Program-made: the position numbers | NCBI RefSeq assembly: GCF_016903815.1 | Contig: NZ_CP069973.1 | Length of the DNA: 64,000 nt | DNA from: Escherichia coli | Lineage (GTDB): Bacteria; Pseudomonadota; Gammaproteobacteria; Enterobacterales; Enterobacteriaceae | Strand: one strand, 5' to 3' | In this document: positions 26,960-29,900 of the stretch, piece by piece | Numbering within the stretch: the first letter of the stretch is position 1 | Layout of the letters: each line of letters opens with the position of its first letter

Positions 26960-29900
26960 TTAAGCGCGCGCTTCAACTCACCCCTGCAATATTTTGTCCA
27001 TCACGCGCCCCGGCAGCAGGCGCTTAAGCACCATTACTGCCCAGGTCACCAGCGTTACCGGATAGCGCATCTTCGGTTTCTCGCTAATAAAAGCATGGCG
27101 CACTTTGTCGACCACCGCTTCCGGCCCCAACGTAAAGCGGGCGGCGATGCCGGGATTTTCGACAGGTTTATCACTTTGCGTCTGGTTGACGTTGTCGGTG
27201 AAGCGAGTACGAATGGGACCGGGTTCGATCAGGCTGACTTTAATTCCGCTGTGGCGTAGCTCCATGCGCAGCGCATCCGACCACGCCTCCAGCGCATATT
27301 TACTGGCTGCGTAAGCGCCGCGACCCGGCGTGGAGATTAATCCCATCACCGATGAGGTCATCACAATACGCCCTTCACCGTGCGGTAACATCGCGGGTAA
27401 CAGGCGCATGGTGAGCTGGTGTGCGCCGAAAAAGTTGGCAGAAAACTGCTGTTCCATCTGCGCACGGCTGATGGTGGAAAGGGGGCCATACATGCCGAAT
27501 CCGGCATTGTTAAAGATCCCATACAGACAATTATCGGTCAGGGCGATCACTTCGTCGGCTGCGCGATCAACACTTTCTGGTGAATCCAGATCGATCAACA
27601 CGCCGGTAAATCCCATGCTGTTCATGCGCTCAACATCATCCGGTTTCCGGCAACCTGCCAGCACATGAAAACCCTGGCGTTTTAATTCGAGCGCGCTTTC
27701 CAGGCCAATTCCACTGGAACATCCGGTAATTAAGACCGATTTTTGCATAACTTTACCTGTCAGGATCTCCGTTGCTTTATGAGTCATGATTTACTAAAGG
27801 CTGCAACTGCTTCGCCATCCAGTCGGCAATAAACGGCTGGGCGTCGCGGTTGGGATGAATACCGTCATCCTGCATCCATTGTGGCTTGAGGTAGACCTCT
27901 TCCATAAAAAAGGGCAGCAGCGGAACATCAAACTCTTTGGCGAGTTTGGGGTAAATGGCGCTAAAGGCTTCATTATAACGGCGACCATAGTTTGCAGGCA
28001 GACGTATTTGCATTAACAATGGTTCAGCGTTGGCGGCTTTGACATCCTGCAAAATCTGGCGCAGCGTTTGCTCGGTTTGTTGTGGCTGAAAACCACGCAA
28101 ACCGTCATTGCCGCCCAGTTCTACCAGCACCCAGCGCGGCTGATGCTGTTTCAGCAGAGCCGGAAGGCGCGCCAGCCCTTGTTGCGAGGTGTCGCCGCTG
28201 ATGCTGGCATTGACTACCGACGTTTTACTCTGCCACTTATCATTCAACAAGGCAGGCCAGGCCGCGCTGGCAGACATTCGATACCCGGCGCTCAGGCTAT
28301 CACCCAGAATCAATAACGTGTCCGCTGCGGCGGCACGGAAGGTTAACAGGACCAGGAACAGGAAGGGCAAATGCCAGCGGAAAACATTGTTGAAGTTCAT
28401 CATCTTAAGAAGTCCGTCGGTCAGGGGGAGCATGAACTCTCCATCCTCACCGGAGTTGAGCTGGTTGTCAAACGTGGCGAGACCATCGCACTGGTGGGCG
28501 AGTCGGGATCGGGTAAGTCAACCTTGCTGGCGATCCTCGCCGGGCTGGATGACGGCAGCAGTGGCGAAGTGAGTCTGGTGGGACAACCTCTACATAATAT
28601 GGACGAAGAAGCGCGGGCAAAGTTGCGCGCGAAGCACGTCGGCTTTGTTTTTCAGTCATTTATGTTAATTCCTACCCTTAACGCGCTGGAAAACGTCGAG
28701 CTTCCGGCGCTGCTGCGTGGTGAGAGTAGCGCAGAAAGTCGTAACGGGGCAAAAGCGTTGCTCGAACAGTTAGGGCTGGGTAAACGTCTGGATCATCTTC
28801 CGGCACAGCTTTCCGGCGGTGAACAGCAACGAGTGGCGCTGGCACGAGCCTTTAACGGTCGACCTGATGTGCTGTTTGCCGACGAACCCACCGGCAACCT
28901 TGACCGCCAGACGGGCGATAAAATTGCCGACCTGCTGTTTTCCCTCAACCGTGAACATGGCACCACGTTGATTATGGTGACCCACGACCTGCAACTGGCG
29001 GCACGCTGCGACCGCTGCTTACGGCTGGTGAACGGGCAGTTGCAGGAGGAAGCATGATTGCACGTTGGTTCTGGCGCGAATGGCGCTCGCCGTCGCTATT
29101 AATTGTCTGGCTGGCGCTAAGCCTGGCGGTGGCCTGCGTGCTGGCGCTGGGCAATATCAGCGATCGCATGGAGAAGGGCTTAAGCCAGCAAAGCCGTGAG
29201 TTTATGGCGGGCGATCGGGCGTTGCGCAGTTCGCGCGAAGTGCCGCAAGCGTGGCTGGAGGAAGCGCAAAAGCGCGGCCTGAAAGTCGGCAAGCAGCTGA
29301 CTTTCGCCACCATGACATTTGCAGGCGACACACCGCAGCTGGCGAACGTCAAGGCGGTGGATGATATCTACCCGATGTATGGCGATCTGCAAACCAATCC
29401 CCCTGGCCTGAAACCGCAGGCGGGCAGCGTATTGCTGGCCCCACGCCTGATGGCACTGCTTAACCTAAAAACGGGCGACACCATTGACGTGGGCGATGCC
29501 ACCTTGCGGATTGCCGGAGAAGTGATTCAGGAACCGGATTCCGGTTTTAACCCCTTCCAGATGGCTCCGCGTCTGATGATGAATCTGGCGGATGTCGATA
29601 AAACCGGAGCCGTGCAGCCGGGGAGTCGGGTCACCTGGCGCTATAAATTCGGCGGCAACGAGAACCAGCTCGACAGCTATGAGAAATGGTTGTTACCTCA
29701 GCTTAAACCCGAACAACGCTGGTACGGTCTGGAACAGGACGAAGGCGCGCTGGGGCGCTCGATGGAACGCTCGCAACAGTTCCTGCTGCTTTCGGCGCTT
29801 CTGACCTTGCTGCTGGCAGTGGCAGCGGTGGCGGTGGCGATGAATCATTACTGTCGCAGTCGCTACGATCTTGTGGCGATCCTCAAAACGCTGGGGGCAG

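What the first reader, a model, noticed from the sequence alone, without database searches (positions are those of the whole stretch)
28371..28403. Divergent tesA and ybbA start codons appear to overlap by ~33 bp
With tesA starting at MMNFNNVFRW (28403, minus) and ybbA at MPAENIVEVHH (28371, plus), the two divergent coding regions overlap at their 5' ends, leaving no intergenic promoter space. Either one start is mis-assigned (ybbA could initiate at a later codon) or the promoters are embedded in each other's coding sequence.
Basis: inference. Interest (0 to 1): 0.25.

Follow-up and report, generated by a model that had tools for sequence, protein, structure and literature searches.

The report
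Real head-to-head tesA/ybbA gene overlap
Two neighbouring E. coli genes that point away from each other, and whose proteins work together in one envelope complex, really do share their first 30-33 bases on opposite strands; this is genuine and conserved, but it is already annotated and has been noted in print.

Summary
ybbA starts at ATG 28371 (+). tesA starts at ATG 28400, or at 28403 as annotated in K-12 (-). The two coding regions therefore share 30-33 nt on opposite strands.

Neither start is mis-assigned in a way that removes the overlap:
- The ybbA ATG is invariant in 81/81 Enterobacteriaceae loci. The next canonical in-frame start, GTG at codon 42, abuts the Walker A motif.
- The tesA ATG at 28400 is invariant in 81/81. 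The ATG at 28403 is ACG in 15 species. The upstream ATG at 28433 and the downstream TTG at 28370 are each a non-start codon in 9.

Each gene's expression signals therefore sit inside the other gene. The ybbA Shine-Dalgarno sequence lies in tesA codons 12-14. A candidate tesA promoter, TTGACA-17-GAGGAT at 28471-28443, lies in ybbA codons 25-34. ybbA codons 11-34 show strong synonymous constraint (p = 6e-8).

In six distant relatives (TesA 41-70% identical) the divergent pair is separated by only -33 to +25 bp.

No transcription-start or translation-start data could be retrieved, and no ybbA promoter was identified.

The overlap is in the K-12 and RefSeq annotations, is noted in a 2025 YbbAP-TesA paper, and is listed as a divergent excludon. 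It is already known and of low interest.

The parts
28371..29057 (+). ybbA coding sequence (ABC transporter ATP-binding subunit, 228 aa)
   Evidence: ORF. NCBIfam equivalog NF007879 aligns 1-228/228. Identical to PDB 9GE6-9GE8 YbbA. ATG conserved 81/81.
27777..28400 (-). tesA coding sequence from the universally conserved ATG (207 aa). K-12 annotates one codon more (28403, 208 aa).
   Evidence: ATG at 28400 is 81/81; ATG at 28403 is 66/81, with ACG in 15. NF007819 profile position 1 aligns to the 28403 methionine.
28371..28403 (.). Dual-coding head-to-head overlap (30 nt to 28400, 33 nt to 28403). Codon position 2 faces position 2, and position 1 faces position 3.
   Evidence: Direct reading. 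Third-position conservation is 0.96 in both genes here, against about 0.67-0.69 elsewhere. All 6 usable tesA codon columns and 5 of 8 usable ybbA codon columns carry a single codon in 81 species.
28360..28367 (+). ybbA Shine-Dalgarno sequence AGGAAGGG, lying inside tesA codons 12-14
   Evidence: Anti-SD duplex -7.0 kcal/mol, within the top ~6% of background. The AGGA core is invariant in 81 loci.
28466..28471 (-). Candidate tesA promoter -35 hexamer TTGACA (6/6), inside ybbA codons 32-34
   Evidence: Invariant in 81 species and in L083. ybbA codons GTT GTC AAA use a single codon in all species. The promoter ranks 17th among all sigma70-like sites on both strands of the 64 kb window.
28443..28448 (-). 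Candidate tesA promoter -10 hexamer GAGGAT (AAGGAT in most species), 17-nt spacer, inside ybbA codons 25-26
   Evidence: Only 3/6 matches to TATAAT, but the -11 A and -7 T are present. The stricter scan did not report it.
28401..28437 (-). Inferred tesA 5' leader (about 37 nt if transcription starts near 28436), antisense to ybbA codons 11-23
   Evidence: Inference from the promoter candidate. Conserved block CCCTGACCGACGGA..TTCTTAAGA. Not more structured than shuffles (z = +0.47).
28401..28472 (+). Zone of excess synonymous constraint in ybbA (codons 11-34), outside the CDS/CDS overlap
   Evidence: 10 of 24 codon columns use one codon in all 81 species, against 2 of 171 in codons 35-228. Mann-Whitney p = 5.9e-8.
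28431..28433 (-). Alternative upstream in-frame ATG of tesA (218-aa form). Judged not to be the main start.
   Evidence: Strong SD, -8.4 kcal/mol. The codon is ATG 47, GTG 23, TTG 2 and CTG 9 of 81, tracking free CAT/CAC/CAA/CAG variation of ybbA codon 21. It would give a 36-aa leader, against 19-27 aa in distant TesA relatives.
28368..28370 (-). TTG, 11th codon of tesA. Gene callers that avoid the overlap use it as the start (197-aa entries).
   Evidence: 197-aa database entries. No SD, -0.9 kcal/mol. CTG or TGG in 9 of 81.
26978..27787 (-). ybbO, downstream of tesA in the same orientation (start overlaps the tesA 3' end by 11 nt)
29054..31468 (+). ybbP, permease partner of ybbA (ATGA start/stop overlap with ybbA)

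Best explanation
This is a genuine, conserved head-to-head overlap of two real genes whose products form one envelope machine (YbbAP-TesA).

Shown here: ybbA is translated from ATG 28371. tesA is translated from ATG 28400, with the adjacent ATG 28403 as an E. coli-specific alternative. Thus 30-33 nt encode the first ten or eleven residues of both proteins on opposite strands. These are the YbbA N-terminus MPAENIVEVH(H) and the n-region (M)MNFNNVFRWH of the TesA signal peptide. No intergenic DNA exists, so every expression signal of one gene lies inside the other gene. The ybbA ribosome-binding site AGGAAGGG lies in tesA codons 12-14.

Inferred: tesA is most likely transcribed from a sigma70-type promoter, TTGACA-17-GAGGAT at 28471-28443, inside ybbA codons 25-34. 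This would give a leader of about 37 nt that is antisense to the start of the ybbA message. The ybbA promoter must lie inside tesA but was not located. The two transcription units would then fire towards and through each other, which is the arrangement called a divergent excludon. Their 5' ends would be complementary over at least about 75 nt. This should couple their expression through RNA polymerase interference and/or RNA duplex formation. The direction and size of that coupling are unknown.
For: Start codons:
- ybbA ATG is 81/81, with an invariant AGGA SD and no alternative upstream start in 77/81 loci.
- YbbA homology to solved ABC ATPases begins at residue 4-9, and equivalog NF007879 covers 1-228.
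- tesA ATG 28400 is 81/81. The facing ybbA His10 codon is always CAT and never the synonymous CAC, whereas His21 uses its majority codon CAT in only 67% of the species that have His there.
- Distant TesA proteins begin MRFRW... or MFVTMRW..., homologous to E. coli VFRWH. tesA codons 7-9 (28374-28382) are therefore translated sequence, and they lie inside ybbA codons 2-4.

Embedded signals:
- Synonymous constraint on ybbA codons 11-34: 10/24 against 2/171 single-codon columns, p = 5.9e-8.
- TTGACA is invariant in 81 species plus L083, and the promoter candidate ranks 17th in the 64 kb window.
- High-ranking sigma70-like sites also occur inside ybbA upstream of tesA in four of six distant loci: locus ranks 1-3 in L083, L086 and L090, and rank 11 in L084.

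Architecture: in six distant loci (TesA 41-70% identical) tesA and ybbA-ybbP are divergent with spacing of -33/-30, -2, -2, 0, +21 and +25 bp.

Literature: the operon overlap is noted in PMC12646458. tesA-ybbA is one of 16 divergent excludons called from 58 MG1655 RNA-seq samples in PMC12288877.
Against: - No experimental transcription start, ribosome-initiation peak or precursor N-terminus was retrieved. Seven supplement searches found nothing, and two further look-ups failed because the papers are not held.
- The -10 hexamer matches only 3/6, and the stricter scan reported no promoter.
- The SD for ATG 28400/28403 is weak (-3.2 kcal/mol), while the upstream ATG 28433 has a strong one (-8.4). 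Part of the conserved block could therefore be an SD rather than a -10 element.
- Part of the putative promoter spacer (AACTCCGGT) is invariant, which a simple promoter does not explain.
- No credible sigma70 promoter for ybbA was found inside tesA (best rank above 600), and tesA shows little extra synonymous constraint beyond codon 20.
- Synonymous constraint near the 5' end of ybbA could in part serve ybbA's own translation.
Confidence: 0.8

Rival explanations
1. tesA actually starts at the upstream in-frame ATG 28433 (218-aa precursor MLPLTDGLLKMMNFNN...). The overlap would then be 63 nt, and the conserved AGGATGGAG block would be its Shine-Dalgarno sequence rather than a -10 element.
For: It has the strongest SD of all candidates (-8.4 kcal/mol, top 1% of background). 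The codon is a start-type codon in 72/81 species. Some gene callers report 218-220-aa forms.
Against: It is CTG in 9/81 species. Its ATG/GTG/TTG/CTG variation is exactly the free CAT/CAC/CAA/CAG variation of ybbA codon 21, unlike the frozen CAT at codon 10. AGGATGGA stays conserved in the species that lack the start. The leader would be 36 aa, against 19-27 aa in distant TesA relatives. The curated equivalog NF007819 begins at the MMNFNN methionine. PGAP and K-12 both choose the downstream ATGs.
Confidence: 0.1
2. There is no real coding overlap. tesA would start at TTG 28370, immediately abutting the ybbA ATG (197-aa form), and the upstream ATGs would be untranslated.
For: Many automatic annotations give 197-aa or 194-aa proteins. 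The codon is TTG or GTG in 72/81 species.
Against: There is no SD (-0.9 kcal/mol). The codon is CTG or TGG in 9/81 species. The signal peptide would lose its n-region and its only N-terminal positive charge (R8). The FRW motif upstream of this codon is shared with distant TesA N-termini (MRFRW, MFVTMRW). ATG 28400 is invariant, with ybbA His10 locked to CAT.
Confidence: 0.03
3. ybbA initiates at a later codon, which would remove the overlap.
For: None beyond the general possibility. ATT at codon 6 is a very rare non-canonical start.
Against: There is no canonical in-frame start before GTG at codon 42 (28494), directly before the Walker A motif (direct reading). The first beta-strand, IVEVHHLKKSV, aligns with residues 2-16 of solved LolD, MacB and MJ0796 domains. 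ATG and SD are invariant. The equivalog profile covers residues 1-228.
Confidence: 0.01

Closest known systems
tesA-ybbA as annotated in E. coli K-12 (b0494/b0495) and described for the YbbAP-TesA complex (PLoS Biol 2025, PMC12646458)
   Same: This is the same locus. The sequence is identical to K-12 across 28213-28546, and the K-12 record carries the same 33-nt annotated overlap. [quoted passage not shown]
   Different: Nothing differs in the object itself. This analysis adds the choice between three tesA starts, the synonymous-constraint map, a candidate embedded promoter, and the near-zero spacing in distant relatives.
Divergent excludons (overlapping 5' transcription of divergent neighbours; ExcludonFinder, NAR 2025, PMC12288877)
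   Same: tesA-ybbA is listed there among 16 divergent excludons of MG1655 found in at least 50% of 58 RNA-seq samples. The transcripts necessarily overlap antisense at their 5' ends.
   Different: In most excludons the overlap lies in untranslated regions, and the two genes are thought to be mutually exclusive. Here the coding regions themselves overlap, and the products are partners in one complex, so mutual exclusion would be unexpected. Neither interference nor RNase III cleavage has been tested for this pair.
Head-to-head (divergent) opposite-strand overlapping genes in bacteria (classification as in PMC2542354)
   Same: Two opposite-strand genes share their 5' ends, and every nucleotide of the shared stretch is constrained by two reading frames.
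   Different: To my knowledge many annotated head-to-head overlaps are start-codon mis-calls. This one survives comparative testing across 81 Enterobacteriaceae species, and the spacing stays near zero (-33 to +25 bp) in distant relatives.

Membership tests
Genuine head-to-head overlapping protein-coding gene pair | Both ORFs are real, conserved protein-coding genes | tested here: met
   NCBIfam equivalogs NF007819 (TesA, 413 bits against a cut-off of 270) and NF007879 (YbbA, 479 bits against 336). Solved YbbAP-TesA structures 9GE6-9GE8.
Genuine head-to-head overlapping protein-coding gene pair | The start codons that create the overlap are conserved, and no alternative start removes it | tested here: met
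   ybbA ATG 81/81 and tesA ATG 28400 81/81. The downstream TTG 28370 is a non-start codon in 9/81. The next ybbA start is codon 42, at the Walker A motif.
Genuine head-to-head overlapping protein-coding gene pair | The shared nucleotides are translated in both frames in vivo | not testable with these tools
   Support is indirect only: the homologous FRW motif in distant TesA N-termini and family N-terminal boundaries. Ribosome-profiling and N-terminomics supplements held no entry for either gene.
Divergent excludon | Transcripts from the two strands overlap at their 5' ends | not tested
   This follows logically from the CDS overlap and is reported from RNA-seq coverage in PMC12288877. No reads or transcription starts were examined here.
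Divergent excludon | Reciprocal (mutually exclusive) expression, transcriptional interference or RNase III processing | not testable with these tools
   No expression data are available. The functional partnership of the products argues against strict mutual exclusion.
Sigma70 promoter (candidate tesA promoter at 28471-28443, minus strand) | -35 and -10 hexamers with 16-18 nt spacing | tested here: inconclusive
   -35 TTGACA is 6/6 with a 17-nt spacer. -10 GAGGAT is 3/6, with the -11 A and -7 T present. It ranks 17th in the 64 kb window but falls below the threshold of the stricter scan.
Sigma70 promoter (candidate tesA promoter at 28471-28443, minus strand) | A mapped primary 5' end 5-9 nt downstream of the -10 hexamer | not testable with these tools
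   The transcription-start supplement searches returned nothing for tesA or ybbA, and one further look-up failed because the paper is not held.
Sec-type signal peptide (TesA N-terminus) | A positively charged n-region, a hydrophobic h-region and an A-x-A cleavage motif before the mature protein | tested here: met
   Direct reading: MNFNNVFRWH (R8), LPFLFLVLLTF, then RAAA before the mature start ADTLL. Distant relatives have comparable 19-27-aa leaders. The mature N-terminus ADTLL is from my recollection of Cho and Cronan 1993 and was not verified here.

The most novel reading that the evidence does not exclude
The missing intergenic space may be a conserved regulatory device rather than an accident. 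tesA and ybbA-ybbP are kept head-to-head at -33 to +25 bp in relatives with TesA as low as 41% identical. This places face-to-face promoters and complementary 5' leaders so that they set the ratio, or the coordinated low-level expression, of the periplasmic hydrolase and its ABC transporter. That would be an excludon-type arrangement acting between partners of one complex instead of between antagonistic functions.
Probability: 0.25. Interest if true: 0.45.

Novelty: already known. Interest (0 to 1): 0.18.

Why it matters
The result settles an annotation question. The overlap is real, ybbA is correctly started, and the conserved tesA start is ATG 28400.

It also explains why public databases carry TesA at 194, 197, 204, 207, 208 and 218 aa, among other lengths. 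Gene callers handle the head-to-head overlap differently.

There are practical consequences for engineering, where tesA is widely used for fatty-acid production:
- Any deletion or replacement of the 5' end of tesA removes the ribosome-binding site and start codon of ybbA, and presumably its promoter.
- Edits to the first ~35 codons of ybbA are likely to hit the tesA leader and promoter.
- Single-gene knockouts of either gene may therefore be polar on the partner, which matters now that the two are known to act as one complex.

Beyond that, the locus is ordinary.

Tried and rejected
- **Experimental start sites.** I looked for transcription and translation start data in supplements of Cappable-seq, the eLife 3'-end/TSS study, tetracycline ribosome profiling, TRAINSPOTTER N-terminomics, Romero 2014 (which held only Streptomyces tables), SMRT-Cappable-seq and ExcludonFinder (no supplement held). 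None had an entry for tesA or ybbA. Thomason 2015 and Lybecker 2014 are not held.
- **ybbA promoter.** A strict sigma70 scan found no promoter in 27900-28900. A looser position-weight scan found the tesA candidate but nothing credible for ybbA. By-eye checks for sigma54, sigmaE and FadR-like motifs gave no convincing match and were dropped.
- **Known RNA families.** There were no hits in 27700-29200 at E <= 1.
- **RNA structure.** Neither translation-initiation region is more structured than shuffled controls (z = +0.47 and +1.43), so a structured regulatory RNA was rejected.
- **Covariation analysis.** It was not attempted, because the region is almost invariant.
- **Rejected starts.** The 218-aa and 197-aa tesA starts and a late ybbA start were considered and rejected (see the rival explanations).

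Full report
**1. Is the observation in the sequence?**

Yes. The window is E. coli. Positions 27700-29100 are 100% identical to strain 7/2, and the stretch is present in 5418 of 5426 complete genomes. It is identical to K-12 MG1655 from 28213 to 28546.

The ybbA ORF runs from 28371 to 29057 on the plus strand (228 aa). The tesA reading frame on the minus strand is open from 28433 down to 27777, with ATG codons at 28433, 28403 and 28400.

K-12 annotates tesA from the 28403 ATG (208 aa, MMNFNN...), which gives a 33-nt overlap with ybbA. RefSeq/PGAP for strain 7/2 uses the next ATG, 28400 (207 aa), which gives 30 nt.

In the shared stretch, codon position 2 of one gene faces position 2 of the other, and position 1 faces position 3. 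No site is therefore free in both frames (direct reading).

**2. Are the start codons right?**

I fetched the locus from 80 other Enterobacteriaceae species, with YbbA 87-100% identical.

For ybbA:
- The ATG is present in 81/81 loci, preceded by an invariant AGGA.
- In 77/81 loci no other start codon lies between the upstream stop and this ATG.
- The anti-Shine-Dalgarno duplex is -7.0 kcal/mol.
- YbbA residue 4-9 aligns with residue 2-22 of solved MacB, LolD, MJ0796 and BceA ATPase domains.
- The curated equivalog NF007879 covers residues 1-228 of 228.
- The first canonical in-frame alternative is GTG at codon 42, directly before the Walker A motif GESGSGKS.

A later ybbA start is therefore excluded.

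For tesA, four codons were compared across the 81 loci:

| Codon (window) | State in 81 loci |
|---|---|
| 28400 | ATG 81 |
| 28403 | ATG 66, ACG 15 |
| 28433 | ATG 47, GTG 23, TTG 2, CTG 9 |
| 28370 (11th codon; start of the 197-aa forms) | TTG 68, GTG 4, CTG 5, TGG 4 |

The ybbA codon facing 28400 is His10. It is always CAT and never the synonymous CAC. The His codon facing 28433 (codon 21) uses its majority codon CAT in only 67% of the species that have His there, and the residue also changes to Gln in some species. That contrast indicates selection for an ATG at 28400 but not at 28433.

The distant TesA relatives that were read begin 19-27 residues before the mature GDS(L) core, and two of them begin MRFRW... 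and MFVTMRW.... These are homologous to E. coli ..VFRWH... Two conclusions follow:
- tesA codons 7-9 (28374-28382), which lie inside ybbA codons 2-4, are translated sequence, so the overlap is real.
- A 36-residue leader from 28433 would be an outlier.

The one point in favour of 28433 is its strong Shine-Dalgarno sequence (-8.4 kcal/mol, against -3.2 for 28400/28403). I keep it as a 10% rival.

**3. Where are the expression signals?**

There is no intergenic DNA, so each gene's signals lie within the other gene.

The ybbA Shine-Dalgarno sequence (28360-28367) lies in tesA codons 12-14.

On the tesA side, synonymous-site analysis of the 81-species codon alignment shows constraint well beyond the coding overlap:

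| ybbA codons | Third-position conservation |
|---|---|
| 1-10 | 0.96 |
| 11-20 | 0.89 |
| 21-30 | 0.81 |
| later blocks (codon 41 onward) | about 0.67 |

In codons 11-34, 10 of 24 codon columns use a single codon in every species. In codons 35-228 the figure is 2 of 171 (Mann-Whitney p = 5.9e-8).

The invariant codons cluster in three places:
- On a perfect TTGACA (minus strand, 28471-28466).
- Around RAGGAT, 17 nt downstream of it (28448-28443).
- On the stretch just upstream of the tesA ATG (CCCTGACCGACGGA..TTCTTAAGA).

With a simple position-weight model, TTGACA-17-GAGGAT ranks 17th among all sites on both strands of the 64 kb window. The same motif is kept in a relative whose TesA is only 70% identical (L083).

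Transcription from it would start near 28436 and give a leader of about 37 nt, antisense to ybbA codons 11-23.

This assignment is an inference, for four reasons:
- The -10 hexamer is only 3/6.
- The stricter scan reported nothing.
- Part of the putative spacer (AACTCCGGT) is also invariant, which remains unexplained.
- No experimental 5' end could be retrieved.

For ybbA I found no credible sigma70 promoter inside tesA (best rank above 600). There is little extra synonymous constraint in tesA beyond codon 20.

Neither initiation region is unusually structured, and no Rfam family matches.

**4. How deep is the arrangement?**

I took representatives of TesA clusters at 41-70% identity and fetched their contigs. 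All six informative loci have tesA divergent from a ybbA-ybbP pair.

| Locus | TesA identity | Called spacing |
|---|---|---|
| L083 | 70% | -33 as called (-30 from the second ATG) |
| L084 | 53% | -2 |
| L089 | 46% | -2 |
| L086 | 47% | 0 |
| L090 | 44% | +21 |
| L088 | 41% | +25 |

In L084 and L089 the two start codons share a CATG palindrome.

In every case there is too little room for two promoters and two leaders between the genes. Embedded, face-to-face signals therefore appear to be the rule for this gene pair. The 30-nt Enterobacteriaceae overlap looks like an extension of an older abutting arrangement.

**5. What is already known?**

- The overlap is in the K-12 and RefSeq annotations.
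[quoted passage not shown] It takes the co-location as support for a functional link and possible co-regulation (PMC12646458).
- ExcludonFinder lists tesA-ybbA among the 16 divergent excludons of MG1655, found in at least 50% of 58 RNA-seq samples (PMC12288877).

The finding is therefore already known.

This analysis adds four things: the rejection of a late ybbA start, the choice of 28400 as the conserved tesA start, a candidate promoter embedded in ybbA with a supporting map of synonymous constraint, and the near-zero spacing in distant relatives.

**6. Mechanism and verdict**

Shown here: both genes are real, both starts are conserved, the shared stretch is under dual constraint, and there is extra non-coding constraint on ybbA codons 11-34.

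Inferred: the tesA promoter position, the antisense overlap of the two 5' ends over at least about 75 nt, and any coupling of expression through polymerase collision or RNA duplexes.

The products are partners in one complex, so strict mutual exclusion, the usual reading of an excludon, would be surprising. Whether the arrangement tunes their ratio is the only open and mildly interesting question.

Overall this is an ordinary, correctly annotated feature. Interest is low.

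Noticed in passing
window 27777-27787 and 29054-29057: Both flanking junctions are same-strand overlaps typical of translational coupling. The ybbO ATG (27787) lies 11 nt inside the 3' end of tesA, and the ybbP ATG overlaps the ybbA stop as ATGA.
   Followed up: no
protein database hits P0001-P0120: Public TesA entries from Enterobacteriaceae are called at 194, 197, 204, 207, 208, 209-210, 218-220 and even 286-347 aa. The head-to-head overlap makes gene callers pick different starts, and the long forms read through antisense ybbA.
   Followed up: partly
window 28449-28457 (minus strand AACTCCGGT; ybbA codons 27-29 ACC GGA GTT): This block is nearly invariant in 81 species: codons GGA and GTT are a single codon in all, and ACC is used in 96%. 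It lies in the spacer of the candidate tesA promoter, where sequence is not normally constrained. It could be a regulator site or part of another signal, and it remains unexplained.
   Followed up: partly
L084 2500-2503 and L089 453-456: In two distant relatives (TesA 53% and 46% identical) the divergent start codons of tesA and ybbA share a CATG palindrome, giving a 2-nt overlap.
   Followed up: partly
L061 (CACSKA010000001.1, labelled Chryseobacterium sp. 18061): This record carries an Enterobacteriaceae-type ybbA/tesA locus (YbbA 89% identical to E. coli). In the 75-nt junction segment printed, and in the first 30 TesA residues printed, it is identical to L064, which is labelled Citrobacter sp. 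18056. The organism label is probably wrong, or the assembly is contaminated.
   Followed up: no
window 28404-28411 (+ strand TCTTAAGA): An 8-bp perfect palindrome sits immediately upstream of the tesA start codons. It is conserved in nearly all of the 81 species: 80 of 81 keep all 8 bp (L023 has TCTCAGGA). It may simply reflect dual constraint from ybbA codons 12-14.
   Followed up: no
window 28629-28648 (+): A terminator-like hairpin with a T-run lies inside ybbA. One such site was found, against 1.2 expected from shuffles, so it is at chance level.
   Followed up: no
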